This document shows, in pieces, positions 13,880 to 64,000 of a DNA stretch of 64,000 bases. The notes under the pieces are model-generated. The model did no database searches and had not been told where the DNA came from. It saw only the letters and a program-made list of their open reading frames with translations. Both the position numbers and the translations under genes were made by a program. The stretch's first letter is position 1; every line of letters begins with the position of its first letter. Source of the stretch: Heterodontus francisci (taxonomy: Eukaryota); the NCBI RefSeq assembly GCF_036365525.1, contig NC_090380.1, positions 43,669,682 through 43,733,681 on the forward strand, in the 5' to 3' direction.

Positions 13880-14079
13880 GGTCAGTTAATCACTTTTTCC
13901 CTCCATCCTATCATAGACCTTTCCCTTTTGTTCTTTTCCTGCACCACCCCCTCCCTTCCCTTCCCTTCGTCTGGCTCTGTATTTATTTAATAAAGCCGAT
14001 AATTTCAAACTTCCAGTTCTGATGAAAGGTCACTGACCTGAAATTTTAACTCTGGTTTTTTTTTCCCACAGATACTGCT
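13880..14079 (+). mobile_element. Penelope-type terminal repeat fragment with hammerhead-like core (copy A)
   Basis: CTGATGA(14019)-A-AGGTC-ACT-GACCT-GAAA(14040), followed by ..ccacagatactgct. The element resumes as tgacctgctcagt at ~14662 after an L2 insertion. Confidence 0.65.
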
Positions 14080-15390: not shown

Positions 15391-15510
15391 TAAAGCAAAA
15401 TACAGTAGATGATGGGTAATCAACCTGAAACGTTAACTCTGTCTGTCTCTCTCTCTCTCTCCACAGATGCTGCTTGTGAGTGCTTCCAGCATTTTGTGTT
15501 TTTATTTCAA
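15391..15510 (+). mobile_element. Short Penelope-type element (copy B) with an inverted piece of its own 3' end
   Basis: GAAACGTTAACTCTG..ccacagatgctgc..ccagcattttgtgtttttatt, preceded by taaagcaaaatacagtagatg, which matches the minus-strand copy terminus at 56265. Confidence 0.65.
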
Positions 15511-29059: not shown

Positions 29060-29688
29060 GGATATAGACAGGCTGATCGAATGGTGGATGAAATTTAATG
29101 CAGAGAAGTGTGAAGTGATACATTTTGGTACAATGAGGAAAGACGAAATAAAATAAAGGATGCAAATCTAAAGGGGGTGCAGGAACAGAGAGTCCTGGGG
29201 GTATAAGTACACAAATAGTTGAAGGTAGCAGGGCAGATTGAGAAAGTGGTTAAAAAGGCATATGGAATCCTGGGCTTTATAAATCAAAGCATAGAAAGTT
29301 GAGAGGTGATTTGATAGAGGTGTTCAAAACCATGAGGGGTCTAGTCAGAGTTGATGGAGAGAAACTGTTGCCATTGGCAGAAGGGTCGAGAACCAGAGGA
29401 CACCAATATAAGATGAATGGCAAAGGAAGCAACAGCGACATGAGGAAAAAACTTTTTTATGCAGCGAGAGGGTAGGATTTGGATTCACTGCCTGAGACAG
29501 TGGTGGAAGCAGATTCAATTGTGGCTTTCAGAAGGGAAATGGATAAGCACCTGAAGAGAAAAAGTTGCAGGGCTACGGGGAAAGGGCGGGGGTGTGGGAC
29601 TAGCTGAGTTGCTGTGTTGCAGAGTTGGCACAGACACGACGGGCCAAATGGCCTCCTTCTGTGCTGTAATCCATTCTATGATTCTATG
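29060..29688 (+). mobile_element. CR1 LINE 3' fragment with internal deletion
   Basis: MKFNAEKCEVIHFG; TRGH; tail attctatgattctatg. Confidence 0.88.
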
Positions 29689-29699
29689 AAGGGTCACAT

Positions 29700-29795
29700 G
29701 TTCTGATGGTCACTGACCTGAAATGTTAACTCTGCTTCTCTCTCCACAGATGCTGCAAGACCTGCTGAGTATTTCTAGCATTTCTTGATTTTATT
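29700..29795 (+). mobile_element. Short Penelope-type element (copy C)
   Basis: gttctgatggtcactgacctgaaatgttaactctg..ccacagatgctgcaagacctgctgagt. Confidence 0.7.
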
Positions 29796-30246
29796 ATCTA
29801 TGATTCAAAGACTATTTCTCACCACATGGTGTGAATTAAAAGCATTCATTGTGGATATAAGCCTCTTCCGCAGTTACCCTTCTCAGCGTCATGAATTTCA
29901 TGGGCTCCTGATCTGGTTCAACCTTTTCTTCTGTGTGTGCTTCCACCTAATCACCCACCCCGAGTTCAGTTTCTGACTGACAGACATTTGCAACCCAAGA
30001 AAAATAATGGACTTAGCTGATAAAATAAGGAGAACAGAATGCTTTGAAAAGGCTGATTCGGACAATTATGCCCAAATCTAATGCATACAAGTCTTTGGCA
30101 AGTCTATCAGTATTGGCATGAGCACACCTTTATCTCTTTGGCCTTTCATAGATACAGTAGCCTGAAATTTCCTGCGTATTTGTGCCCAGAGATATGCATA
30201 ATTGGAGCACAAAGCAAATAGACGGCCTAAAAGATTGCTGAATTCT

Positions 30247-31164: not shown

Positions 31165-32409
31165 ATTATGACCAGACATTTAAGCGCAACTGTCAGGCAA
31201 GCCCCCCACCTACAAAGACGGAGGCACACATTATTTCACCACATAAAAAGTAAAACTTAAAATTGCAAGCCCCTGACTGGAAAGACATTTGCATAGTAAC
31301 CGACAGTGTTGGAACAATCGAGACCCAGTCGTTGCTTCCCAATACACAAACGAAATGGTCAAACCAGTTTTAGTCACATGAGTTAGCACAGGCTGTCCAG
31401 TCTGAAAGTGAAGCAGAGGGAATCCTTGATTGCTACTATTTAAATAATGAGGTACTGATGAGGAAATGGAGTTTTCCTCACGACCTGAGGGCAAGGAGTA
31501 CACAGCAGTTCACCAGTTAGTGGTGCCGCAGAGGTACCAGGGAAAAATATTAAGAAGGGCCCACGAGACTACAGTGGCTGTACATGCCGGTATACGAAAG
31601 ACCAAAGCCTGCATAAGACAGCAGTTTGACTGGCCAAAACTCCACAAAGATGTGGTGGAGTAATGCAGGAGTTGCCACATGTGCCAAGTTGAGTGGAAAC
31701 CCCAGCTACAGTGAAACCTGCACCCCTAAGCACTGTACCAGTGTTAGAAGGACCCTCCAGCAGAGGGCTGGTGAACTGTAAGGACCCCCGCTGAGAACAA
31801 AAGGGGACAGGCAGGCACACAGCTGGCAAACGTTTAGAAAGGGAAGGGGAAAAAGTGACCAAGAGGGCAGCTTAAAGAACACCCAGGAAGAATCCTGGAT
31901 GAAAACCCCTACTGTCCGGTCAACCAACCCTGAAAATGTGAAAAGTTAGACCCCACATCCTCCTATGTCAATACAGACTCAAGAAGCACCCCAACAAAGT
32001 TGCTAACAGCAATTACAGGAACCTGCAGAGACAAAGAGAGATCTCTAGAGAGCACAGAAACTGTGAGGGTGATGCCTCAGCTAATCGAAGGGTCACAGGA
32101 GAGTGCAGTTAAGTCTGCACAAATACTTGCAGGTAGGAGTGTCCCAAAGAACAAAGGGGAGATTAACAAAGACTCCTCCCCCACAGTCAGAGGAAAAGGG
32201 AACCGCCAATCGCCTGAAGTCAAAAGTCTTTGTAAAGCAGCCCTTGCCCCAGAACAGACCATTTTTAATAAGCTTTAAGATTGGTGAATGAATGGAAAAG
32301 AATGAGAGAAATGCATGGTTTTTCTTTCTGTATCTTATATTTCTCTCAAACTCTGTAATGAAGTGCACTGTTTTCCTCAAATCGCATTTCATTCCCCTGG
32401 GTGTGAAGG

Positions 32410-33226
32410 TGTCAGGCAAACTCCCTACCCGTCAAGACTGAGGCACACATTATTTGGCCACATGAACAGTAAAACTTAAAATTGCAAGCATCTGACTGGA
32501 AAGACATTTGCATAGTAACAGACAGTATTGGAAGAATGGGGACCCAATCGTTGCTTCCCCAATATACAGAAGAAGTGGTCAGACCAGTTTTAGTTATATG
32601 AATAACTGGCAGTTGCAGAGGTTGGAACTGAGAGTGTTTTAAATTGGAGAAAACAGTGTTTGAAGTCAGAAAGCCATGTGCTCCCGGTTGGAACAGAATC
32701 TCCTCTCCAGTCCTGCCTGCCTCCATCTCTTTCCCATGGCACTGAATCTTGTGCAAACATGTGAACCTCAAAAAGAGAATAGTCTCCTACATGAACAAGG
32801 TTTAAGAAGAACACTGGGCCCCAACGAACAGCAAGACTACCTACAATCAAGTGAGCTCGAAGCACAGTAAAAAAAAACCCTTTAGAGACTGCCTCAAACC
32901 TTTCCCCTTATACTTTCTTCTTCTCTTTTCTGTCCCTAATTGCAAATGCGTATCGCATGTGCATGCTTGCGTGGGCACGTCGTATATCCGTAGGTGTTAA
33001 CTGTTAGAGTTTAAGTTTAAAGTTTAATAAAATTTCATCTTTCTTCTTTAAACCTTAGAAAACCTTTGTGAATTGGTTTCTTTGTCTTATAATTGGAAAG
33101 CTGTGAACAAGGATTCACAAAAGGGGGAGTTCAAAACACAGTGTGTTTAAAAATAAAACTCTGTTACAATAAGACCAGGTAAAGACAGCAAAAGACCCCA
33201 GACACATTTCTCACCTGGTCGTAACA
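32410..33226 (+). repeat. Central LTR (TG...CA) followed by a degenerate tRNA-Pro-like PBS
   Basis: TGTCAGGCAAAC..CTGGTCGTAACA; AATAAA at ~33026; next TGGGTGTTAGCTTCTGGGAT resembles TGGGGGCTCGTCCGGGAT. Confidence 0.85.
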
Positions 33227-33367
33227 GAAATTTGGGTGTTAGCTTCTGGGATTTTACCCACAGACGAATGAACGAAATTGGAAGTGGGAAGCCAAATTGT
33301 TCCCAATCAAAAATAGCAAAAATTTCAATACAGGTTTTCTTGTGGTTGTGTGTGATTGAATAATAAC

Positions 33368-35640
33368 ATGTCTGCAACTGAAGCGAGTTGCTCTCCAAGC
33401 CAGGGTGAAGTAACTTGGGATAAGTTAATAGCACTGTCTATGGAGGAATTGAGAAAAATGGCTGAGCAGTGTGGGATCACTGTATGTGGCAAGGCCAGGA
33501 AGTATGAACTCCTAAGGCTAGTGGCCAACCACTTTTCCCTTGACTTTGAAGAAGCAGAAGCAGGGTTAGAGGTAGACCCAGGATATTGCTGGGTATTGCT
33601 AGCAAAAGTACAATTGGGACAAAAGAAACTTGAATTAGAAGACAGGGAAAGAGAAAAAGAAGGGGAGAGACAGGAGAAAGAGAGAGAAAGAGACAGGAAA
33701 AAGAGTGAGAGAGAGACAGAAGAAGGGGAAAGAGAGAGCCTTCCAAAAGGGACGTGAAGAGAATGACAGGCAGGAGAGAGAGAGAAAGAATATTCTGGAA
33801 AGAATCCGGAGAGAGCTGAAGCGGTTTGAGTTAACTAGGGGGCGACAGAGTAACCCTAGTGAAAGCATAGCCAATATGGAGGAGCACAATTCAGGGCTGG
33901 GTACAAGATTGCTAAAACTCATTCAACTAATTCCAAAATTCAATGAGGAAGATGTGGAAGTGTTTTACATGTCTTTTGAGAAACTGGCAAGGCAGCTAAA
34001 ATGGCTGGTCTCTAAGACCTGGTCTCTCTTATTGCAAAGAAAATTAACTGGAAAAGCAGATGAGGTTTATTCCTTGTTGCCAGATGGGAGTTCATCAAAT
34101 TATGAACTGACCAAAAATGCTATCCTCGGGGCATATGAATTAGTACCCGGAGCCTATTGCCAAAAGTTTAGAACCCTCAAAAAGCAAGCTAATCAAACTT
34201 ATCTGGAGTTTGAAAGAAGTAAGCAGCTGGCTTTTGACCAGTGGCTTTAAAAATACAGCTCAGCTATGAGACTCTCAGAGAAGTAATCCTGTTAGAGGAA
34301 TTTAAAAACTCTCTCCCACTCTCAATAATAACCCATGTAGAGGAGCAGCGGGTTCTGGGAGCCCAGCAAGCGGCCGTTCTGGCTGATGAGTTTGCTTTAA
34401 TTTATAAGTCAGTTTCCCAAGTGAGAACCTTTCATAATCACCCCCACCAATCCGAAAAGGACAAAGGGCGGGAAGGTGATATCTGCCCAGGCAGTCCTGG
34501 CAGAGAAAGGAAAGCACCTGTGTGCTTCCATTGTAATAAGGCAGGGCATTTAAATGCTGACTGCTGGACACAAAAGGGGAAACCGGTAGGGTTAATCAGG
34601 GCACACCCGCTCAGTGAAGACGAGTGCCTGATGCAAAACACAGAACAAGCTGTGGCTTTAACTGCAGTAAGAGTGCAACCCAGGAAGCTTACTGTGACCA
34701 GTTCAGGAAAAGTTAATAGGATTCCTGAAGGTTATCAGGGTTTTGTGTTTGAAGGGAAAGTAACCCAATGTTCCTCGAGTGAGGCAAGCACCCGATAATA
34801 ATTCTCAGGGACACAGGGGCCACCAGATCCCTTTTACTAGGAAAATGCCTGATCTTTCCCCCAGTGAGTGTAGTGAACACCAGAATGGTGGTGAATGGTA
34901 TTGGAGGGCAGTGTATGCCTGTACCTGTACACCAGGAGCACCTGGAGCGCAACCTAGTTTTGGGACCGGTGACCGTAGGGATTGTCCCTAGTTTGCCTGT
35001 GGACAGGGTTGACCTGCTCCTAGATAATGATCCGGCAGGGGTGAAGGTGGTAACCCTCCCAGTAGTGAAAGAAAGACCGCAGGAGGTCAGAGAGTCAGGG
35101 CAGTGACCAGAGACGGTCCCCTGCAGAGTTCCTGAATGTGTAATGGATCAGGCCATGATCAAACCAGCTCCCCCAGAGGAGACTGCACTGACACTGCAGG
35201 CAGATGACCTGCCTGTCCGTGACTTTCTTTGGAAAGTTAGGAGACCCAGGGAATTAATTAAATGGATTTTCCCTAGCTGGGGCTCAGTGAGCCGACCCAG
35301 TATTGCAACAGTAAGCACAGGCTGGCCAGTCTGAAAGTGAAGCAGAGGGAATCCCTGATTGCTACTATTTAAATAATGAGGTACTGATGAGGAAATGTTT
35401 TCCTCATGACCTGAGGGCAAGGAGTGGACAGCAGTTCACCAGTTAGTGGTGCCGCAGAGGTACCAGGGAGAAATATTAAGAAGGGCCCACGAGACTACAG
35501 TGGCTGTACATGCCGGTATACGAAAGACCAAAGCCTGCATAAGACAGCAGTTTGACTGGCCAAAACTCCACAAAGATGTGGTGGAGTACTGCAGGAGTTG
35601 CCACATGTGCCAAGTTGAGTGGAAAACCCACCTACAGTGA
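33368..35640 (+). pseudogene. gag-protease-integrase Zn-finger pseudogene of the Gmr1-like element
   Basis: EELRKMAEQCGI..; coiled-coil; IPKFNEEDVEVFYMSFEKLA..W; SCAN-like LREVILLEEFKNSLP; CFHCNKAGHLNADC; ILRDTGAT (~34801); AHETTVAVHAG..WPKLHKDVVEYCRSCHMCQ. Frameshifted; no IN core, RT or RNase H. Confidence 0.88.
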
Positions 35641-36338
35641 AACCTGCACCTCTAAGTCCTGTACCAGTGTTAGAAGGACCCTCCAGCAGAGGGCAGGTGA
35701 ACTGTAAGGGACCCCCGCTGAGAACAAAAGGGGACAAACAAGCGCACGGCTGGCAAATGTTTAGAAAGGGAAGGGGAAAATGTGACCAAGAGGGCCGTTT
35801 AAAGGAAGCCCGGGAAGAATCCTGGATGAAAACCCCTACTGTCCGGTCAACCAACCCTGAAAATGTGAAAAGTTAGACCCCACATCCTCCTATGTAAATG
35901 CAGACTCTAGAAGCACTCCACTAGAGTTGCTAACAGCAATTACCAGGAACCTGCAGAGACAAAGAGAGATCTCTAGGCAGCACAGAAACAGTGAGGGTGA
36001 TGCCTCAACTAGTCGAAGGGTCACAGGAGAGTGCAGTTAAATCTGCACAAATACTTGCAGGTAGGAGTGTCCCAGAGAACAAAAGGGAGATTAACAAAGC
36101 CTCCTCCCCCACAGTCAGAGGAAAAGGGAACCGCCAATCGCCTGAAGTCAAACGTCTTTGTAAAGCAGCCCTTGCCCCAGAACAGACCATTTTTAATAAG
36201 CTTTAAGATTGGTGAATGAATGGAAAAGAATGAGAGAAATGCATGGATTTTCTTTCTGTATCTTATATTTCTCTCAAACTCTGTAATGAAATGCACTGTT
36301 TTTCCTCAAATCGCATTTCATTCCCCTGGGTGTGAAGA

Positions 36339-37151
36339 TGTCAGGCAAACTCCCCACCCGTCAAGACTGAGGCACACATTATTTCGCCACATGAGCAGTA
36401 AAACTTAAAATTGCAAGCCTCTGACTGGAAAGACATTTGCACAGTAACAGACAGTATTGGAACAATGGGAACCCAATCGTTGCTTCCCCAATTAACAGAA
36501 GAAGTGGTCAGACCAGTTTTAGTCATATGAATAACTGGCTGTTGCAGAGGTTGGAACTGAGAGTTTTACATTGGAGAAAACAGTGTTTGAAGTCAGAAAG
36601 CCATGTGCTTCCGGTTGGAACAGAATCTCCTCTCCAGTCCTGCCTGCCTCCATCTCTTTCCCACGGCACTGAATCTTGTGCAAACATGTGAACCTCAAAA
36701 AGAGAAAAGTCTCCTACATGAACAAGGTTTAAGAAGAACACTGGGCCCCAACGAACAGCAAGACTACCTACAATCAAGTGAGCTCCAAGCACAGTAAAAA
36801 AAAACCTTTAGAGACTGCCTCAAACCTTTCCCCTTATACTTTCTTCTCTTTTCTGTCCCTATTTGCATGTGCGTATCGCGTGTGCATGCTAGCGTGGGCA
36901 CGTCGTATATCTGTAGGCGTTAACTGTATTAGAGTTTAAGTTTAAGGTTTAATAAAATTTCACTCTTTCTTCTTTAAACCTTAGAAAACCTGTGTGAACT
37001 GGTTTCTTTGTCTTATAATTGGAAAGCTGTGAACAAGGATTCACAAAAGGGGAGCTCAAAACACAGTGTGTTTATAAAAAAAACACTGTTACAATAAGAC
37101 CAGGTAAAGACAGCAAAAGGCCCCAGACACATTTCTCACCTGGTCATAACA
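36339..37151 (+). repeat. 3' LTR
   Basis: Closely similar to 32410-33226; TG..CA termini. Confidence 0.9.
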
Positions 37152-38721
37152 GCAACAGAAAACAGTAATTTTTCTGGCATTTTATGGTAACTTTGTTGAG
37201 CATTTTGTTGTCCTCACCAGGATGTGCTCTGCATTTCTGTTTCTTTGTATAATTATAATGGCATCAGTAAGTGACATTAAAAATTGAGAAGATTCCCCAA
37301 TTTCAGGTTCTTAAGCATGCTGTATCTAATGTGCATGAATTATAATTAGATCGGTTTAAATTTTAATTTTCATTTGTCAAGGAATAAATGGGGCCCCGAT
37401 TTTAATTCTGTGCAAATGGATGTGTTTTGAATGAATTAAAATTGTACCCATGATATGACTTCAGCACTTTACTTGAGTTTCAATTGTTTATGCTGATTTA
37501 TGGCCATTTATATGTTTGGGCATATACTAATGAGATTGGCAGGAAATTTGAACATAATTTGAGATCAAAGGAATAGGTCCAAAATTGGTTACAACTTCCA
37601 GGAAGGATACCATGAAACTTCTAAATTCTGCTCTGCAATGTTTTTCAGTTAATAGGGGTCTTGAAGTTGTGGAAGCCTCTTGCATTTTATGAGCCCTGAG
37701 AAGGAGATGGAAACACAATTAGACATTGTAGACAATATGTAAAGATTTTTTCTTTAGCGTCTCTGAATTGAATTTCCGGTCCGGTGAAGTTTCTCCAGAC
37801 TGTTGGTTTAACAAGCAATGTTCTGTTTATTCCTGAAACACAGCTAAATGAAATTGCTACTTTTCATTTGACCACAGTAGTGAAGGGGATAGCGGTGAGG
37901 GTGTATTTAATAAAGGGGAATTGACAGAACTGTTGGCAACAAAACTACATACACAGAACCCCTGCATGTTCCAATCAAGATTAGCGTGAATGGTTCAGAT
38001 GCTGAGCCTCAGGGTTATGTGTAAGGTGGTGGGGTGGGGGTGGGGGGAGAGCGTATCTAATGTAACAAGAGATGTACCTGGTGTATCTACCACGAGTAGT
38101 ACCATGAGGAATATCCTGAAAAAGGGACATCAACAGATTTAACAAGAGGTCATATTATTGGCATTTAGTGAGACTTTAGAATATTTTGCCAGGAGAATTC
38201 CATCTAACTAGATCCATTCACACATACCTAAAATGGAACTGGGCCTGTTTTAAGTGTTTCATTCGAATATAATTGAAGAAATAATCTAAACAACCTGACT
38301 TCAGGATACCCTTCAAGATTGTGCACCTTGAGATCTTTCAAAATGTCAATTTTGCAAAGTCAGATTTGAATTAAGTGATAAAGGGATTAGAGGTAAGATT
38401 GAGTCTAATACACACAGACTGAAATGACAATGATTCAGCCACCAAGAATAATGGGAAGTGATAACTTCCAAATTTATGCTCTGCCAAATCTTTCTGTGGA
38501 AGGGTAATGTTGGTTTAGGAAACCATATATTGTTAGGGAGCTATCTAAAATAGGCCTGGAGAAAAAAGGGGAATCTTCTGCTGCTTTGACTAAGGTCTAG
38601 GACATATTATGGAGCCTAAGTTGTCTTCAATACAGAAAAGCAAAAAGGAGAGGATGCCCTGTCTCAAATGGGAGTGGGACTGGGACTTGACTGGCCTAAA
38701 TTCAGAGAAAGAATTACATTT

Positions 38722-41409: not shown

Positions 41410-41930
41410 GCGACAGGAGCAGCAGGAGATAAAGCCAAGTATGGGAGTGGACTTGCGGGAGATGGAGCCAGGCCCGGGAGTGGATCTGCGGGAGAGCGAG
41501 AGGAGCGGCAGGAAATAAAGGAGACCCAGGAAAGGTCCTACGGGAGATAGAGCCAGGCCCAGGAGCAGACCTGCAGGAGATAAAGGAGGCCTAGGAGCTG
41601 GCCTGTGGGAAATAAAGGAAGGACCTAAGGGAGACAAAGCCAGGCCCGGGAGTGGAATTGCAGGAAAGCGAGAGGAGCAATGACAGAAACAGACCTGGGA
41701 GCAGAACTGTGGGAGAAAAAGCCAGGTCCAGGAGTGGACCTGCAGGTGATAAAAGAGGCCCAGGAGTTCACCTGTGGAAGATAAAGCCAGGCTCAGGAGC
41801 GGAACTGCAGGAGAGCAAGAGGAGCAATGACAGAGACAGGCCTGGGAGCGGACCTACTGGAGATAAAGGAAGCCCGGGAACTGCGGGAGACTCAGGAGCT
41901 GGACTCAGCATAAAAATTCAAGGAGTGAAA
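41410..41930 (+). repeat. Degenerate tandem repeats forming the 5' UTR of a CR1
   Basis: Recurrent ~30-35 nt unit (ggagataaagccaggcccaggagtggacctgc-like) immediately upstream of CR1 ORF1. Confidence 0.75.
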
Positions 41931-43333: not shown

Positions 43334-43431
43334 AGGGAGGGCAGCAAGAACGTAGTCCATGGCACCATTGCTGGCTCAGCTGTACAGGAGGGCAGGAGGA
43401 AGATTGGGAAAGCAATAGTGATAGATCATTC

Positions 43432-43527
43432 CGAAGAAGGGTCACTGACCCGAAACGTTAACTCTGCTTCTCTTTCCACAGATGCTGCCAGACCTGCTGA
43501 GTGAATCCAGCATTTCTTGTTTTTGTT
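43432..43527 (+). mobile_element. 96-bp Penelope-type short element (copy D) with 14-bp TSD
   Basis: GTGATAGATCATTC at 43418-43431 and 43528-43541; body cgaagaaGGGTCactGACCCgaaacgttaactctg.. Confidence 0.85.
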
Positions 43528-44420
43528 GTGATAGATCATTCTATAGTTTGGAGAACTGATAAGTGTTTCTCTGGCTGCAGATGTGAATCCAGAATGGCAT
43601 GTTGCCTCCCTGGTACCAGGGACAAGGATGTCACTGAATGCCTGCAGAGCACTCTGAAGGGGGAGGATGGACAGCCAGAGGTCGTGGTCCCTATCAGTAC
43701 CAACGACACAGGTAGAGAGAGGGATGTCCTACAGGCAGATTTTAGGGTGCTAGGATGAAGACTAGCAAGCAGGACCTCAAAGGTAGTAATTTTTGATTAC
43801 TCTTAGTGTCACTTGCTTGTGAATATAGAAGTAGGAGGATAGAGCAGATGAATGCATAGCCAGAGAGATGGTGCAGGCGGAAGGCCTTTAGATCCTGGGA
43901 CATTGGAACCAGTTCTGAGGGAGATGGGACATGTACAGGCTGGATGGATTGCACCTCAACAGGATCGGGACCAATGTGCTTGTGAGCAGTTTGCGAGTGC
44001 TGTGGGAGAGGGTTTAAACTAAATTGGCAAGGAGATGGGAACCAGAATGTAGCATTAGGAAGGATAAACAAGGTTTATCAAAGTTTGGGAGAGACAGATA
44101 GCACGAGAGTAAGAAATAGTAGGGTATTAGGTGGGGTCAGACTAAGAGGAAACATTGTAAGATCTAATTCAGGTTTACAGTTCATGTATGTAAATGCATG
44201 GAGTGTGCTATTATGGCCATGTGGTGTGATGTGGATGGTTCCCACTGTTCAACTCCCCACCTGACCGCAGCAAGTGTATCTGTATTAGAGATTAGCCCCT
44301 TGCTGTTTTATTTTTCAAATGAACAGACCACAACAGGTTTTCTTGTAGGTTTTAAAAACAGAATATTAATTGTTTACTGATCAATATGCCTTATCCCAAA
44401 ATTGTCACAAATGCATCCAG

Positions 44421-49917: not shown

Positions 49918-52450
49918 CTACCATGGGAACAGACTCTGGCTATCTACCCTATCTATGCCTCTCATAATTTTATATACCGCTATCATGTCCCCTCTCAGCC
50001 TCCTTCGCTCCAGGAAAAACAGACCCAGCCTATCCAATCTCTCTTTATAACGCAAGCCCTCCAAACCAGGCAACATCCTCGTGAATCTTTTCTGCACCCT
50101 CTCTAGCGTAATCACAGCTTTCCTGTAGCGCAGCAACCAGAACTGCACACAGTACTCCAAATGCGGCCTAACCAACATTATGTACAACTGTAACATGACA
50201 TCCCAACTCTTGTACTCAATGCCTCGGTCGATGAAGGCAAGCATGCGATATGCCTTCTTCACCACCCTGTCTACCTGTGTTGCCACTTTCAGGGAACTAT
50301 GTACTTGCACCCCAAGGTCTCGCTGCTCAACAACACTCCCCAGGGCCCTGCCATTCACTGTATATGTCCTGCCCTGGTTTAACTTCCCAAAATGCATCAC
50401 TTCAAACTTGTCTGCGTTAAATTCCATTTTCCAATCCCTTGCCCACTTTCCCAGTTGATCTATATCCTGTTGCAACCTTAGACAGCCTTGTTCACTGTCC
50501 ACTATACCACCAATTTTAGCGTCATCTGCAAACTTACTAATCATGCCCCTTACATTCACATCCAAGTCATTAATATATATGACAAACAACAGAGGGCCCA
50601 GCACCGATCCCTGCGGCACACCACTGGTCACCGGCCTCCAATCTGAAAAACAACCCTCCACTACCACCCTCTGCCTCCTATCACCAAGCCAATTTTGTAT
50701 CCAATTTGCTAGCTCACCCTGGATCCCATGTGTTAGAACCTTCTGGACCAGCCTAGCATGCGGGACCTTGTCAAAGGCCTTGCGAAAGTCCATGTAGACA
50801 ACATCCATCGCCCTGCCCTTGTCAATCCTCTTGGTCACCTCCTCGAAAAACTCAATCAAATTCGTGAGGCATGATTTCCCACGCACAAAGCCATGCTGAC
50901 TATCCCGAATCAGACCATGCCTTTCCAGATGCATATAAATCCTGTCTCTCAGAATCCCTTCCAATAACTTTCCCACCACTGATGTAAGGCTCACCGGCCT
51001 GTAGTTCCCTGGATTATCCCTGCTGCCCTTCTTAAATAAAGGCACAACATTAGCTATCCTCCAGTCTTCTGGTACCTCACCCATGGCTAACGATGATATA
51101 AAAATCTCTGCCAGGGCCCCAGCAATCTCCTCCCTTGCTTCCGAGGTGTATCCGAGGTGCTTCAATACCTCCAACACCTCCTCCTTTGTAATGTTGATAT
51201 GCTCCAGGATATCACTGTTCCCTCCCTTGAACCCACTAGCTTCCATGACCTTCTCCACGGTAAATACGGACGAGAAATATTCATTTAAGACCTCGCCCAT
51301 TTCCTGTGGCTCCACACATAGATTGCCACACTGATCCTTAAGGGGACCTACTCTCTCCCTAGCTACCCTTTTACTCTTAATATACTTATAGAATCTTTTA
51401 GGATTCTCCTTTATCCTATCTGCCAGGGAAATCTCATGGCCCCTTTTCGGCCTCCTAATTTCCTTCTGAAGTGTAGTCCTACATCCCCTATACTCCTCGA
51501 GGGACTCACTCGATCCTAGCTGCCTATACCTGATATATGCCTCCTTCTCTGTCCTGACCAGACCCTCAATATCCCTCATCAACCAAGGTTCCCTAAACTT
51601 GCCAGCCTTGCCCTTCCATCTAACAGGAACATGCCAGCCCTGAACTCTTCCTACCTCACTTTTAAAAGCCTCCCACTTGCCAGATGTCCCTTTACCTGTA
51701 AACAGTCTCTCCCATTCAACTTTAGAGAATTCCTGTCTGATGCCATTGAAATTAGCCCTCCCCCAATTTAGGACTTCAACCTGAGGACCAGTCCTATCCT
51801 TTTCCATAACTATCTTGAAGCTAATAGAGTTATGGTCACTGGTCCCGAAGTGCTCCCCCACTGACACATCCTCATTTCCTAAGAGGAGGTCGAGTGTGGC
51901 CCCTTCTCTAGTAGGGCCATCCACATACTGCTTCAAAAAACTATCCTGGACACACTTAACAAATTCTTCCCCATCTGATCCCTTAGCACTAAGGCAGTCC
52001 CAGTCAATATTAGGGAAGTTAAAATCACCTACTATTACAACCGTATAATTCCTACACCTATCGGTGATTTCACTACAGATATGCTTCTCCACTTCCCTCT
52101 GACTACTGGGGGGGCCATGTAGTATAATCCCATCAAAGTGATCACCCTTTTCTTATTTCTAAGTTCTACCCATATGGCCTCGCTGGACATTCCCCCGGTG
52201 ATATCCTCTCCAATTACTGTCGTGATGTCCTCCCTAATCAATAGTGCAACTCCCCCTCCTCTCTTACCTCCACGTCTGTCATGCCGGAAGGATCGGTACC
52301 GCAGAACATTGAGCTGCCAGTCCTGCCCATCCCTCAACCACGTTTCCGTAACAGCTCTAATATCACAATCCCATGTACCGATCCATGCTCTGAGTTCATC
52401 TGCCTTACCTGTAAGGTTTCTTGCATTAAAGTAAATGCAGTTTAGCCTAC
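49918..52450 (-). pseudogene. CR1 ORF2 (APE endonuclease + reverse transcriptase), frameshifted near 52100
   Basis: YFNARN..VTETWL..GGGVALLI; 724-aa ORF with GDFN, SDH, NYRPVSLTS, QHGF, KAFDKV, GVPQGSVLGP, FADD. Lacks the KSPGPD segment. Confidence 0.92.
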
Positions 52451-55334: not shown

Positions 55335-58170
55335 GCAGGACTGACCCAGCAGAGGTGGTGGCACAGTGGTATACAGTCAAGAGGGAATTGCCCTGGAAGT
55401 ACTCAACATCAACTCCGGACCCCATGAAGTCTCATGGCATCAGGTCAAACATGGGCAAGGAAACGTCCTGCTGATTACCCACCTACCGCCCTCCCTCAGC
55501 TGATGAATCAGTACTCCTCCATGTTGAACACCACTTGGAGGAAGCACTGAGGGTGGCAATGGTGCAGAATGTACTCTGGGTGGGGGATTTCAATGTCCAT
55601 CACCAAGAGGGGCTTCGTAGCACCACTACTGACCGAGCTGGCCGAGTCCTAAAGGACATATCTGCTCGACTGGGTCTGCAGCAGGTGGCGGGGGAACCAA
55701 CAAGAGGGAAAAACATACTTGGCCTTGTCCTCACCAATTTGCCAGGCACAAATGTATCTGTCCATGACAGTATTGGTAAGAGTGACCACCGCACGATCCT
55801 TGTGGAGATGAAGTCCCATCTTCACATTGAGGATACCCTCCATCATGTTGTGTGGCACTGCCATCGTGTTAAATGGGATAGATTTCAAACAGATCCAGTA
55901 ACTCAAAACTAGGCATCCATGAGGTGCTGCGGGTGATCAGCAGCAGCAGAAATGTACTCAACCACAATCTAACCTCATGGCCTGGCATATCCCCCACTCT
56001 ACCATTACCATAAAGCAGGGGGATAATCCCTGGTTCAATGAAGAGTGCAGGACGGCATGCCAGGACCAGCAGCAGGCATACCTCAAAATGAGGTGTCATC
56101 CTAGTGAAGCCACAACCCAGGACTACGTGCATGCCAAACAGCGTAAGCAGCATGCGATAGACAGAGCTAAGCAATCCTACAACCAACGGATCAGATCTAA
56201 GCTATGCAGTCCTGCCACATCCAGTCATGAATGGTGGTGGACAATTAAACAACTAACTGGAGGATAAAAGCAAAATACTGCAGATGCTGGAAATCTGAAA
56301 TAAAAACAAAAAGTGCTGGAAATACTCAGCAGGTCAGGCAGCATCTGTGGAGAGAGAAGCAGAGTTAACGTTTCAGGTCTGTGGCCTTTCATCAGAGCAC
56401 TAACAGCAGGAGGTGCCTCCACAGATATCCCCATCCTCAATGATGGGGGAGCCCAGCACATCAGTGCAAAGGATAAGGCTGAAGCACTTGCAACAATCTT
56501 CAGCCAGAAGTGTCCAGTTGATGATCCAACTCGGCCTCCTCCTGAAGTCCCAGCATCACAGATGCCAGTCTTCAGCCAACTCGATTCACTCTGTGTGATA
56601 TCAAGAAACGACTGATGGCACTGAAGACTGCAAAGGCTATGGGCCCTGACAACATTCCGGCAGTAGCACTGAAGACCTGTGCTTCAGAACTTGCCGCACC
56701 CCTAGCCGAGCTTTTCCAGTACAGCTACAACACTGGCATCTGCCCAGCAATGTGAAAAATTGCCCCGGTATGTCCTGTACACAAAAATCAGGACAAATCC
56801 AAACCGGTCAATTACCGCCCCAACAGTCTACTCTCGATCATCAGTAAAGTGATGGAAGGTGTCATCGACAGTGCTATCAAGCGGCATCTGCTTAGCAATA
56901 ACCTGCCCATTGACGCTCAGTTTGGGTTCCGCCAGGGCCACTCAGCTCCTGACCTCATTACAGCCTTGGTTCAAACATGGATGAAAGAGCTGAACTCAAG
57001 AGGTGAAGTAAGAGTGACTGCCCTTGACATCAAGCAGCATTTGACCAAGTATGTCATCAAGGAGCCCTAGCAAAACTGAAGGCAATGGGAATCATGGGGA
57101 AACCCTCCGCTGGTTGGAGTCATACCTAGCACAAAGGAAGATAGTTGTGGTTATTGGAGGTCAATCATCTCAGCTCCAGGACATCACTGCAGGAGTTCCT
57201 CAGGGTAGTATCCTAGGTCCAACCATCTTCAGCTGCTTCATCGACCTTCCTTCAATCAGAAGGTCAGAAGTGGGGATGTTCGCTGAAGTTTGCACAATGT
57301 TCAGCACCATTCGCGACTCCTCAGATACTGAAGCAGTCCATGTCCATATGCAGCAAGACCTGGACAACATCCAGACTTGGGCTGATAAGTGGCAAGTAAC
57401 ATTCCTGTCACACAAATGCCAAGCAATGACTATATCATACAAGAGAGAATCAAACCCATCTCCCCTTGACATTCAATGGCATTGCAGTTGCTGAATCCCC
57501 CACTATCAACATCCTGGGGGTTACCATCGGCCAGAAACTGAACTGGAGTAGTCATATAAATACCTTGGCTACAACAGCAGGTCAGAGGCTAGGAATCCTT
57601 CAGCGAGTAACTCACCTCCTGACTCCCCAAAGCCTGTCCATCATCTACAAATTACAAGTCAGGAGTATGATGCAATACTTTCCACTTGCCTGGATAGGTG
57701 CAGCTCCAACAACACTCAAGAAGCTTGACACCATCCAGGACAAGTCAGCCCACTTGATTGGCACATCATCCACAAACATTCACATCCTCCACCATCGACA
57801 GTGGCAGCAGTGTGTACCATCTACAAGATGCACTGCAGCAATGCACCAAGGGTCCTTAGACAGCACCTTCCAAACCCACGACCTCTACCACCTAGAAGGA
57901 CAAGGGCAGCAGATGCATGGGAACACCAACATCTGTTCCCCTCCAAGCCACACACCATCCTGACTTGGAACTATATTGCCGTTCCTTCACTGTCGCTGGG
58001 TCAAAATCCTGGAACTCCATTCCTAAGAGCACTGTGGGTGTACCTACCTCACATGGACTGCAGCGGTTCAAGAAGGTCTGACCACCATCTTCTCAAGGGC
58101 AATTAAGGATGGGCAATAAACGCTGGCCTGGCCAGCGACACCCACATCCCATGGATGAATTTTTAAAAAA
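55335..58170 (+). mobile_element. 5'-truncated CR1/L2-group LINE (distinct family), ORF2 degenerate
   Basis: RGGGTVVY; YRPPS; WVGDFNVHH; SDH; PWFNEEC; NYRP; QFGFRQGHS; GVPQGSILGP; ends in an A-rich tail. Confidence 0.9.
56265..56398 (-). mobile_element. Short Penelope-type element (copy E) with degenerate ~13-bp TSD
   Basis: Minus strand CTGATGA-A-AGGCC-ACA-GACCT-GAAACGTTAACTCTG; flanks actaactggagga and actaacagcagga. Confidence 0.8.
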
Positions 58171-59585: not shown

Positions 59586-61640
59586 AAGGAAAGATTATAT
59601 CAGACACCGAGAACTCAATACTGCAGAAATCCGAGAGGAGCATAGAAAGAGCAGGGGTGAAATCAAAAAGGAAATTGGGTAGGCGAAGAGAGGGCATGAA
59701 AGAATATTGGCAAGTAAAATCAAGGAGAGCCCAAAGATGTTTTATCAATACATTAAGAGTAAGATAACTAAGGAAAAAAACAAAAAAGTAACCTATGTGT
59801 GGAGGCAGAAGATGTGGGTATGATTCTTAATGAATACCTTGCATTTGTCTTCATGATAAAGGGAGACAATGCAGACATTGTAGTTAAAGAGGAGAAGTGT
59901 GAAATATTGGATGTGATAAACGTAGGGAGAGAGGAAGTATTGAGAGCATTAGCATCCTTGAAAGTGGATAAACCACCAGGGCCAGATGGAATGTACCCCA
60001 GGCTGTTAAAAGAAGCCAGGGAGGAAATAGCAGATGCTGTGACTATCATTTTCCAATCCTCACTGGATGCAGGTATTGTGCCGGAGGATTGGAGGACTAC
60101 TAACATTGTACCTCGTTTAAAAAGGGACTGATGGATAGACCGAATAATTACAGGCCATTAATCTGACCTTGGTAGTGGGAAAACTTTTGGAAACAATTCT
60201 GATAGACAGGATAAACTGTCATTTAGAAGGGTACAGAATAATCAAGAACTGTCAGCATGGATTTGTTAAGGGAAGATCGTGTCTGACCAACTTGATTGAA
60301 TTTTTTGAGGAAGTAACAAGGAGGATTGATAAGGGTAGTGCAGTTGATGTGGTCTACATGGATTTTAGCAAGGCTTTTGACAAGGTCCCACATGGCAGAC
60401 TGGCTAAAAAAAAAAAGGCCATGGGATCCAAAAGAATATAGCAAGCTGGATACAAAATTGGCTCAGTGGTAGGAAACAAAAGGGTAATGGTTGACAGGTG
60501 TTTTTGTGACTGGAAGGCTGTTTCCAGTGGGGTTCCGTAGGGCTCAGTACTGGGTCCCCTGCTTTTTTTGGTATATATTAATGATTTGGACTTAAATATA
60601 GGAATCATGATCAAGAAGTTTGCAGATGACACAAAAATTGGCCACGTGGTTGATAAAAGGTGTAGACTGCAGGCAGATATCAATGGACAGGTGGGCAGAA
60701 AAGTGGCAAGTGGAATTCAACCCGGAGATGAGGTGATGCATTTAGGGAGGTCAAACAAGGCAAAGGATTATACAATAAATGGGAGGATACTGAAAGGTGT
60801 AGAGGGTGTGAATGTCCACAGATCCTTAAGGTAGCAAGACAGGTTGAGAAGGTGGTGAAGAAGGTATATGGAATCCTTTCCTTTATTAGCCGAGGTATAG
60901 AATATAAGACCAGGGAGGTTATTGTAGAGCTATATAAAACACTTGTCATGCCACAACTTGAGTACTGCATGCAGTTCTGATCACCTTATTACAGAAAGGA
61001 TGTAATTGTACTAGAGAGGGTACAGAGGAGATTTATGAGGATGTTGCCAGGTCTGGAAAATGGCAGCTATGAGGGAAGATTGGATAGGCTGGGGTTGTTT
61101 TCCTTGGAACAGAGGAGGCTGAGTGGAGATTTTAGGTGTGCAAGGCTGTGAGGGGCCTGGATAGAGTGGATGGGAAGGACATAGTTCCCTTAGCAGAGAG
61201 GTCAGTGACTAGGGGGCATAGATTTAAAGTGATTGGTAGAAGGATTAGAGGGGAGATGAGGAAATTTTGTTCACCCAGAGGGTAGTGGGAGTCTGGAACT
61301 CACTGCCTGGAACAGTAGTAGAGGGTAGAAACCCTCAACTCATTTAAAAGATGTCAGGATATGTACCTGAAGTTCCATAACCTCCAGGGATATTGACCAA
61401 GTGCTGGAAAATAGGAGGCTGGGTGCGTTTGTTTCTCGGTAGCCACAGACACGATGGGCCGAGTGGCCTCCTTCTGTGCCCTAAATTTTTCTACATTTTC
61501 TATATATTCTAAATATCTGGAGGAGGAATGTGCAGGGTTGTGGGGAGAGGGCGGGGAGTGGCAGTACATGAATGCCTCCTTAGGAGGGCCAGCACAGATG
61601 CGATGGGTCGAATGGCCTTCTGTGCTGTAATGATTCTATA
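59586..61640 (+). mobile_element. 5'-truncated CR1 with two successive 3' tails
   Basis: KPPGPDGMYPRLLKE; QHGF; FSKAFDKV; FADD; tails at ~61480-61510 and ~61620-61640. Confidence 0.9.
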
Positions 61641-62294: not shown

Positions 62295-64000
62295 GCATGG
62301 GTTGCAGCATGGGTTGGAACCTGGGATCTCAATGTTGTGGCTATTTCGGAGACATGGGTAGAGCAGGGACAGGAATGGATGTTGCAGGTTCCGGGATTTA
62401 GATGTTTCAGTAAGAACAGAGAAGATGGTAAAAGAGGGGGGGGTGTGGCATTGTTAATCAAGGAGAGTATGACGGCGGCAGAAAGGACGTTAGAGGACTC
62501 GTCTACTGAGGTAGTATGGGCCGAGGTTAGAAACAGGAGAGGAGAGGTCACCCTGTTGGGAGTTTTCTATAGACCTCCGAATAGTTCCAGAGATGTAGAG
62601 GAAAGGATAGCGAAGATGATTCTCGACAGGAGCGAGAGTAACAGGGTAGTTGTTATGGGGGACTTTAACTTTCCAAATATTGACTGGAAATACTATAGTT
62701 CGAGTACTTTAGATGGGTCAGTTTTTGTCCAGTGTGTGCAGGAGGGTTTTCTGACACAGTATGTCGACAGGCCAACCAGAGGCGATGCCACATTGGATTT
62801 GGTACTGGGTAATGAACCCGGACAGGTGTTAGATTGAGATGTAGGTGAGCACTTTGGTGATAGTGATCACAATTCGGTTAGGTTTATCTTAGCGATGGGC
62901 AGGGACAGGTATATACCGCAGGGCAAGAATTATAGCTGGGGGAAAGGAAATTATGATGCGATTAGGTAAGATTTAGGATGCGTAGGATGGGGAAGGAAAC
63001 TGCAGGGGATGGGCACAATCGAAATGTGGAGCTTATTCAGGGAGCAGCTACTGCGTGTCCTTGATAAGTATGTACCTGTCAGGCAGGGAGGAAGTTGTCA
63101 AGCGAGGGAGCCATGGTTTACTAAAGAAGTTGAAGCGCTTGTCAAGAGGAAGAAGGCGGCTTATGTTAGGATGAGACGTGAAGGCTCAGTTAGGGCGCTT
63201 GAGAGTTACAAGCTAGCCAGGAAGGATCTAAAGGGAGAGTTAAGAAGAGCGAGGAGAGGACACGAGAAGTCATTGGCGGATAGGATCAAGGAAAACCCTA
63301 AGGCTTTCTATAGGTATATCAGGAATAAAAGAATGACTAGAGTTAGATTAGGGCTAATCAAGGATAGTAGTGGGAAGTTGTGTGTGGAATCAGAGGAGAT
63401 AGGGGAAGCGTTAAATGAATATTTTTCGTCAGTATTTACAGTAGAGAAAGAAAATGTTGTCGAGGAGAATACTGAGATACAGACTACTAGGCTAGATGGG
63501 ATTGAGGTTCACAAGGAGGAGGTGTTCGCAATTTTGGAAAATAGATAAGTCCCCTGGGCCAGATGGGATTTATCCTAGGATTCTCTGGGAAGCCAGGGAG
63601 GAGATTGCAGAGCCTTTGACCTTGATCTTTATGTCATCATTGTCGACAGGAATAGTGCCGGAAGACTGGAGGATAGCAAATGTTGTCCCCTTGTTCAAGA
63701 AGGGGAGTAGAGACAGCCCTGGTAATTATAGACCTGTGAGCCTTACTTCGGTTGTGGGTAAAATGTTGGAAAAGGTTATAAGAGATAGGATTTATAATCA
63801 TCTTGAAAAGAATAAGTTCATTAGAGATAGTCAGCACAGTTTTGTGAAGGGTAGGTCGTGCCTCACAAACCTTATTGAGTTTTTTGAGAAGGTGACCAAA
63901 CAGGTGGATGAGGGTAAAGCCGTGGATGTGGTGTATATGGATTTCAGTAAGGCGTTTGATAAGGTTTCCCACGGTAGGCTATTGCAGAAAATACGGAAGT
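62295..64000 (+). mobile_element. CR1 ORF2 (APE to RT), runs off the window
   Basis: VVAISETW; GGGVALLI; YRPP; GDFN; SDH; KSPGPDGIYP; NYRPVSLTS; FSKAFDKV; a few stops and frameshifts. Confidence 0.92.

What the first reader, a model, noticed from the sequence alone, without database searches (positions are those of the whole stretch)
43418..43541. Hammerhead-headed ~100-bp mobile element with its own TSDs (five copies in the window)
Seen: five copies (14019, ~15410, ~29702, 43432, and 56398 on the minus strand) start at or near a CTGANGA-A-[5-bp stem]-GAAA-CGTT-AACT motif. Stem II differs by a compensatory pair (AGGTC/GACCT at 14027 vs GGGTC/GACCC at 43439). The stem III region is the palindrome AACGTT, and upstream AGTT can pair with downstream AACT. 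Copy D is only 96 bp with a perfect 14-bp TSD; copy E has a degenerate ~13-bp TSD. Established: Penelope-like elements carry minimal type I hammerheads with palindromic stem III thought to act as dimers. Inference: this may be a non-autonomous, ribozyme-bearing retroelement (retrozyme/SINE-like) mobilised in trans. The extra A after the core and mutations in individual copies mean activity is unproven.
Basis: partly seen in the sequence, partly recalled or inferred. Interest (0 to 1): 0.72.

Follow-up and report, generated by a model that had tools for sequence, protein, structure and literature searches.

The report
Penelope retrotransposon stubs marking RNA start
These ~100-base repeats are short end-pieces of a young, very abundant Penelope-like jumping gene rather than a separate ribozyme element, and many of them begin at one fixed point that likely marks the capped start of its RNA.

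Summary
The five copies are real; D has a perfect 14-bp TSD. They are not a separate retrozyme/SINE: the sequence is the terminal module (hammerhead-like motif to 'tail') of an autonomous Penelope-like element with intact 916-aa RT+GIY-YIG ORFs in a 3,290-bp tandem unit. About 480,000 such ends are extrapolated for this 6-Gb genome. 3' ends fall at two sites (+97, +134), the known Penelope tail. 5' ends are not random: genome-wide, 16.6% and 15.0% of intact heads are lost at positions -4 and -5 (substitution background 1.2%), at an initiator-like TCAGTT with a TATA-like box 30 nt upstream, with excess G at the junction. There is no stop at the predicted cleavage site (0 of 100), and full-ORF copies mostly run through their upstream head (2 of 21 stop). 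Best reading: stubs are cDNAs primed internally on capped, uncleaved mRNA and run off its 5' end; long copies use another template (circle or multimer). The youngest subfamily carries a U4C core. Cleavage and TSS are untested. The scan noted the same 5' clustering in other genomes.

The parts
43418..43431 (+). Copy D, left target-site duplication (14 bp); last 3 bases are microhomology with element positions -2..+1
   Evidence: exact match to 43528-43541; one search places +1 at 43431
43432..43527 (+). Copy D body, 96 bp: youngest subfamily of the Penelope-like terminal module, ends at the first 3' site (+97), no tail
   Evidence: (98% to a long copy)
43431..43463 (+). Minimal hammerhead-like motif in D: core CCGAAGA (U4C), extra A, 5-bp stem II, GAAA, palindromic ACGT, predicted scission 43459/43460, stem I 3' arm; 5' arm of stem I only partly present
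   Evidence: sequence; pairs counted; activity untested
43528..43541 (+). Copy D, right target-site duplication
13881..14078 (+). Copy A: older subfamily (CTGATGA core at 14019), extends about 138 bp upstream into the element's 3' UTR, cut short near +60, no TSD found
15392..15509 (+). Copy B: decayed old copy, core degenerate at 15406, preceded by a scrap of inverted tail
29675..29806 (+). Copy C with 10-bp TSD (29675-29684, 29797-29806); head starts at -3 (29700) after 15 extra bases; 4-bp deletion at the base of stem II; ends near +97
56252..56411 (-). Copy E with 13-bp TSD (56411-56399 and 56264-56252, 2 mismatches); starts at -3 (56398), CTGATGA core at 56395, carries the tail

Best explanation
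The copies are short insertions of the terminal module of an autonomous endonuclease-positive Penelope-like retrotransposon, with two fixed 3' ends and a preferred 5' end, likely made when its reverse transcriptase primes about 100-135 nt inside the capped, uncleaved mRNA and runs off the RNA's 5' end. Shown: the parent element (3,290-bp unit, 916-aa RT+GIY-YIG ORF starting 169 nt after the core), the two 3' ends, the sharp 5' peak at -3/-4, G excess there, no peak at the scission site, and a much weaker stop at the upstream head of full-ORF copies. Inferred: transcription starts at the A of TCAGTT (TATA-like box at about -30), so the first four RNA bases are the 5' arm of hammerhead stem I; the element's endonuclease makes a staggered cut (TSD mostly 9-15 bp); RT primes at +97 or +134 (as shown in vitro for the anole element); on reaching the cap it adds C, which appears as extra G or pairs with G in the target; priming on both DNA strands gives the head-to-head pairs. 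Long and tandem copies would come from a second template with no end at that point: a hammerhead-cut and ligated circle, or a read-through multimer. The stubs lack the upstream promoter and the sequence downstream of the priming sites, so they are likely dead on arrival.
For: Parent element: long copies run ~370 bp upstream into an RT+GIY-YIG ORF; many 924-codon open frames among 150 scored matches; tandem period 3,290 bp and ATG at +169; Pfam RVT_1 E=6e-6 and GIY-YIG E=0.002, both under the curated cut-offs. 3' ends of 112 copies: 46 at +93..+103, 49 at +131..+138, 17 elsewhere. Unselected 814 kb, copies found by their 3' half only: 65 copies; 14 of 50 at risk end in -7..+3, P<=1.4e-7 against either flanking hazard. 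Genome-wide exact counts: 38,418 (+1..+25), 32,095 (to -3), 26,753 (to -4), 22,748 (to -5), 17,670 (to -13, on a 3-nt shorter core), i.e. 16.6% and 15.0% lost at -4 and -5 against 1.2% substitutions per base. G before AGTT 64 of 100 (43% expected), before GTT 58 of 100 (30% expected); a second G in 9 of 17 direct GGTT copies; untemplated 5' G is read as cap copying for L1 (PMC9341517). 100 of 100 listed copies keep T across the scission site. Second pass: 2 of 21 distinct passes stop at the upstream head; 1 of 20 against 37% genome-wide, P=0.0012. TATA-like box and YYAGTT keep their spacing across subfamilies. Internal priming at two sites, both strands extended, uncut RNA the dominant substrate: PMC11167929.
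Against: No direct TSS, cap or cleavage data: only contigs of guessed-RNA runs were available and they show no ends. The peak is spread over -5..+3, with 5.8% per base lost at -1..-3. The G counts include inverted pairs, where the other arm can supply G, and G-rich microhomology with the target. The second-pass sample is small, chosen for long ORFs, and against the unselected sample the contrast is weak (Fisher P=0.12; binomial P=0.04). One subfamily variant is rarer among short copies (8 of 23 long, 2 of 37 short; P=0.005 post hoc), so the short:long ratio is not constant. The sequence before the head also resembles a branch point plus 3' splice site, and in D. virilis the intron ends at helix I (PMC4209133). 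Read by eye, the U4C subfamily does not make more stubs than older canonical-core ones (about 6 of 20 versus 15 of 29), which a weakened ribozyme making fewer circles would predict. Circle versus multimer is not resolved.
Confidence: 0.7

Rival explanations
1. An independent non-autonomous element (retrozyme/SINE-like) whose own ~100-nt transcript or circle is mobilised in trans by the Penelope protein.
For: Fixed 5' and 3' ends and TSDs; uneven subfamily shares between short and long copies; a 2026 preprint derives animal retrozymes from pLTRs.
Against: Sequence is the parent's terminus with the same variants in short and long copies; stubs lack the TATA-like box and the region past +134; no head-to-tail arrays of the stub in the 65 unselected copies as read by eye; ends are not at the scission site; 5' joints carry individual fillers, fold-backs and microhomologies.
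Confidence: 0.07
2. RT is ejected at -4 by structure (stem I completing in the cDNA, or a bound protein), on an RNA that continues upstream; the site is not an RNA end.
For: The peak coincides with the 5' edge of stem I; frequent fold-back joints there.
Against: The same sequence at the upstream head of full-ORF copies stops RT in only 2 of 21 passes; the fold is weak (about -8 kcal/mol); G excess is not predicted.
Confidence: 0.1
3. The 5' boundary is a splice junction (3' splice site at CAG|TT), stubs being copies of spliced RNA.
For: Conserved CTAAY and pyrimidine tract before YAG across subfamilies; D. virilis intron ends at helix I.
Against: Upstream 12-mers of 88 short copies match the element's plus strand in only 2, at unrelated places; no shared upstream 6-mer in more than 2 of 50 direct copies; no such joint among those listed; putative branch A is only about 11 nt from the AG. 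A first exon of 1-3 nt cannot be excluded.
Confidence: 0.07
4. Ordinary random 5' truncation, or solo pLTRs left by recombination.
For: 15 of 65 unselected copies end inside +4..+70 and long ones end at scattered places; solo pLTRs without TSDs were ascribed to recombination in Adineta.
Against: Hazard at -4/-5 is about five times that at -6..-13 and over ten times the substitution rate; stubs have their own TSDs and 5' fillers.
Confidence: 0.06

Closest known systems
Endonuclease-positive Penelope-like elements, Neptune/Nematis type (Craig et al. 2021, PMC8557442)
   Same: Single ORF RT then GIY-YIG, CX4CX2C linker, pseudo-LTRs from partial tandems, inverted 5'-truncated copy, optional 30-40-bp tail at one end, hammerhead in the pLTR.
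   Different: In the passages seen, no account of a 5'-end peak at the hammerhead's edge or of TSD-flanked 100-bp stubs; clade not tested by phylogeny here.
PAc, Poseidon element of Anolis carolinensis (Frangieh et al. 2024, PMC11167929)
   Same: Two adjacent internal RT start sites defining the tail, downstream of the hammerhead; uncut RNA used as template; no RNA ends at the scission site.
   Different: PAc's ORF starts in stem II; here the main ATG is at +169 after an in-frame 30-codon upstream frame. The text read does not map a TSS or tally genomic 5' ends (its Fig. S2 was not seen).
Minimal hammerheads of metazoan PLEs (Cervera and de la Pena 2014, PMC4209133)
   Same: No real helix III, palindromic 15.2-16.2, extra base between 9 and 10.1, short helix I, mostly dispersed single motifs or close opposite-strand pairs.
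   Different: Helix II is 5 bp; position 17 is U; youngest subfamily has U4C; older subfamilies have A-U at 10.1-11.1 rather than G-C.
Non-LTR retrozymes (PMC7229834; bioRxiv 10.64898/2026.07.22.740005)
   Same: Non-coding, type I hammerhead, related to PLE pLTRs, longer TSDs.
   Different: Retrozymes are head-to-tail repeats, typically 150-450 bp, with canonical hammerheads and circular RNAs; these stubs are single or head-to-head and are colinear with an autonomous element.
Minus-strand strong-stop DNA of LTR retroelements (recalled, no call)
   Same: Short cDNA primed near the RNA's 5' end that runs to the cap.
   Different: Target-primed and inserted directly; no tRNA primer; second-pass data do not favour an obligatory jump at each cap.

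Membership tests
EN+ Penelope-like element (parent) | One ORF with RT and C-terminal GIY-YIG | tested here: met
   916 aa, RVT_1 at 442-567 and GIY-YIG at 818-853, both below Pfam cut-offs but in order
EN+ Penelope-like element (parent) | Tandem or partial-tandem layout giving pseudo-LTRs, inverted 5' copies | tested here: met
   3,290-bp tandem; head upstream and downstream of ORFs; inverted copies
EN+ Penelope-like element (parent) | Optional 30-40-bp tail | tested here: met
   3' ends at about +97 and +134
Neptune/Nematis clades | CX2-5CxxC linker between RT and EN | tested here: met
   CX4CX2C in the translation; definition
Neptune/Nematis clades | RT phylogeny with reference elements | not tested
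   no reference set at hand
Minimal type I hammerhead | Core C3-U4-G5-A6-N7-G8-A9 and G12-A13-A14-A15-U16-H17 | tested here: inconclusive
   Met in older subfamilies (CTGATGA, CTGAAGA); U4C in the youngest; U4C lowers activity in vitro yet allows viroid infectivity (PMC3088659)
Minimal type I hammerhead | Stems I and II with covariation | tested here: inconclusive
   89.9% of 297 cells paired; one pair goes A-U (16), G-U (7), G-C (10) across subfamilies, a single lineage event; pairs with two-sided change 2 versus 0.8 shuffled, 89 of 500 shuffles as high (33 sequences hand-picked from 43 gapless heads plus copy A)
Minimal type I hammerhead | Self-cleavage as monomer or dimer | not testable with these tools
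   no Rfam hit; no genomic 5' peak at the scission site
Non-LTR retrozyme | Head-to-tail repeats with a hammerhead in each unit | tested here: not met
   single or head-to-head copies; one close same-strand pair (110 bp) listed was not examined
Non-LTR retrozyme | Monomer-length linear and circular RNA | not testable with these tools
   only contigs available
SINE-like independent family | Own master lineage with private diagnostic changes | tested here: not met
   same variants at +73..+76 and same cores in short and long copies; a full tree was not built

The most novel reading that the evidence does not exclude
The genome holds a fossil record of two Penelope templates: a capped linear mRNA that begins exactly at hammerhead stem I and yields 100-138-bp dead-end stubs, and a hammerhead-cut, re-ligated circle that yields all long and tandem copies, so the stub-to-long ratio reads out ribozyme use in the germ line; and the currently most active lineage does this with a U4C catalytic core.
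Probability: 0.3. Interest if true: 0.72.

Novelty: new member of a known kind. Interest (0 to 1): 0.45.

Why it matters
How Penelope-like elements rebuild their promoter and tandem structure, and what their hammerheads do, is open. This family is young, has many intact ORFs and tens of thousands of near-identical ends, so it gives base-exact predictions: TSS at -4, priming at +97/+134, uncut RNA as the stub template, a second endless template for long copies. It also warns that repeat libraries may misfile these stubs as SINEs or retrozymes. The element class, tail, inverted pairs and dispersed hammerheads are already known, and this scan has met the pattern many times, so the object itself is not a surprise.

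Tried and rejected
Rfam scan of the window: 9 matches at E<=10, none a hammerhead, all below gathering scores. DNA search of the own genome with copy D found nothing because common words are skipped. Pfam GIY-YIG search of the own genome returned 3 matches, two of them another Penelope family. RNA: 24 runs listed, all contigs, most only guessed to be RNA; laying 4 of them on the tandem junction gave a depth plateau over the stub region 10-20 times the flanks, but this is expected from genomic copy number in introns or DNA and says nothing on ends, strand or circles. Folding: the stem I + stem II fold is near the minimum-energy fold of a natural 40-nt head; the predicted two-strand fold is not the catalytic dimer, so folding gives no support for dimer activity. 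Rejected: CpG decay as the source of CTGA/GACCT in old copies (old copies show T without the matching CA class, unlike the CG at +26/27: 5 CA, 4 TG of 43); a second cleavage site at GUC before the head (triplet not kept in older subfamilies); a strong-stop jump at every cap (would predict equal stop rates at both heads). The lenient aligner over-extends some old copies (C and E among them), so 14 of 50 is a low count; by eye about 20. Look-up of earlier findings by sequence found nothing.

Full report
Observation. The five copies are present and homologous, far above chance (4 matches, 0.08 expected; 3 matches, 0 expected). Numbering below: +1 is the first C of the hammerhead core. D has a perfect 14-bp TSD and 96 bp between, E a 13-bp TSD with 2 mismatches, C a 10-bp TSD. 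A is not head-started: it continues about 138 bp upstream. D's core is CCGAAGA. Rfam finds no hammerhead.

Genome context. The window is G000:C10:43669682-43733681 of a 6.0-Gb assembly; a shark-like host is my inference from recall and from the scan's earlier notes, not tested. Exact 32-mers number 37,667 with CCGANGA and 1,963 with CTGANGA. In 814 kb taken without regard to the element (window, 200 kb beside it, 55 scattered 10-kb stretches), a search with the 3' half alone finds 65 copies, about 80 per Mb or 480,000 per genome by extrapolation. That search misses window copy A, whose 3' half is cut.

Parent element. Long copies run about 370 bp upstream to the stop codon of an RT+GIY-YIG frame. 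A 120-aa query returns 150 scored matches, many in 924-codon open frames. A tandem array has a period of 3,290 bp: head, +97 and +134 end sites, ATG at +169, 916-aa ORF, 3' UTR, next head. Pfam matches RVT_1 and GIY-YIG in that order, below cut-off; a CX4CX2C linker points to the Neptune/Nematis type (definition in PMC8557442, passages). The finding is therefore the terminal module of an autonomous Penelope-like element.

3' ends. Of 112 pattern-selected copies, 46 end at +93..+103, 49 at +131..+138 and 17 elsewhere. This is the optional tail, which in the anole element lies between two internal RT start sites (PMC11167929, parts 1-2 of 4 read). In head-to-head pairs, 28 of 30 classified rows have the tail on exactly one arm, 2 on neither, none on both; 2 further rows were unclassifiable and some pairs are counted from both arms.

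5' ends. In the unselected sample 30 of 65 reach beyond -60, 6 end at -60..-8, 14 at -7..+3, 11 at +4..+26, 3 at +27..+33 and 1 later; P<=1.4e-7 for the head peak. Genome-wide nested exact counts for the youngest subfamily are 38,418, 32,095, 26,753, 22,748 and 17,670: 5.8% per base lost at -1..-3, 16.6% at -4, 15.0% at -5, about 3.1% per base at -6..-13, against 1.2% substitutions (52 of 4,180 bases). So templates were uncut or re-ligated.

What the peak is. The site is YYAGTT, an initiator-like sequence, with a TATA-like 8-mer 31-24 nt before the A in long copies of several subfamilies (consensus motifs recalled; TATA plus Inr was proposed for an Adineta pLTR, PMC3846280, passages; D. virilis Penelope has a TATA-less internal promoter, PMC2377424, passages). 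G is in excess just before the head: 64 of 100 versus 43% and 58 of 100 versus 30% (tallied by eye; tests); a second G in 9 of 17 direct GGTT copies; several TSDs end in GG or GGG that merge with the head. An untemplated 5' G is read as cap copying in L1 (PMC9341517, passages). No shared upstream exon exists (2 of 88 plus-strand hits).

Second pass. One search examined 37 loci chosen for long ORFs; 4 gave no anchor; rows with identical junctions were collapsed, 8 events ending downstream of +33 and one 3' run-on were dropped, leaving 21 passes over an upstream head, of which 2 stop there (-3 and +3). Against the genome-wide excess of 37%, 1 of 20 gives P=0.0012; against the unselected 14 of 50, P=0.04 (binomial) or 0.12 (Fisher). 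A structural block should act equally at both heads, so a template end is favoured, and long copies need a template with no end there: the circle proposed in PMC4209133 (parts 1-2 of 4 read) or a multimer as in PMC11167929.

Ribozyme. The motif fits the minimal PLE hammerhead, including the extra base after A9. Subfamilies run from CTGATGA with A-U at the base of stem II, through G-U, to CCGAAGA with G-C: one true compensatory path, not broad covariation. U4C lowers activity in vitro but is tolerated in a viroid (PMC3088659, passages). Minimal PLE hammerheads cut poorly, as dimers or with protein. Activity here is unshown.

Independent element? Short and long copies share all common variants at +73..+76 and all cores, although one variant is rarer in short copies (P=0.005, post hoc). 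Retrozymes are head-to-tail repeats (PMC7229834, passages; bioRxiv 10.64898/2026.07.22.740005, parts 1-3 of 5); these are not.

Prior art. Searches found no paper describing TSD-flanked stubs starting at the hammerhead's edge, cap-like G at PLE junctions, or the first/second-pass contrast; the library lacks most subscription papers, Repbase and Dfam were not available, and supplements of PMC11167929 (Fig. S2) and PMC4209133 were not read and may bear on this. PMC6155905 was seen as passages only. The scan's own notes hold 210 findings with these words in at least 26 genomes, several with the same reading of the 5' ends; my reading was stated before that look-up and those notes are not independent support.

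Verdict. A new member of a known class; the stub is a by-product, not a mobile unit. Its value is as a sharp, testable record of Penelope's RNA start and template use. Interest 0.45.

Noticed in passing
L134 (minus strand), positions +52..+144 of the element; window 43482-43527 in copy D: An ATG at +52 opens a 30-codon frame that is in frame with the main ORF and separated from it by one TAA; it may be a relic of an ORF start nearer the hammerhead, as in the anole element (read).
   Followed up: no
window 43457-43481 (copy D) and +78..+101 of tailed copies: The module holds pyrimidine tracts ending in CAG that look like strong 3' splice sites; with about 480,000 copies, some sense-oriented intronic copies could be exonised.
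   Followed up: no
L001-L080, L194-L253: 38 of 88 short copies are head-to-head pairs; 28 of 30 classified rows have the tail on exactly one arm, as if each DNA strand primes at a different site.
   Followed up: partly
L102, L103: A second, divergent Penelope-like family with long RT+GIY-YIG frames in the same genome.
   Followed up: no
window 31191-33230 and 35310-37155: Tandem duplication with about 3,927-bp spacing at 91-97% identity.
   Followed up: no
window 41416-41825: Degenerate tandem array of roughly 85-bp GA-rich units.
   Followed up: no
window 45730, 48733, 50741-51456, 60163-61416, 63243-63989: Dispersed LINE-like RT fragments (CR1-type by recall, not tested); many stubs and full-length copies elsewhere also sit in such sequence.
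   Followed up: no
L144, L092: Some insertions run past the tail into the ORF start at their 3' end, implying priming further downstream or a truncated next unit.
   Followed up: no
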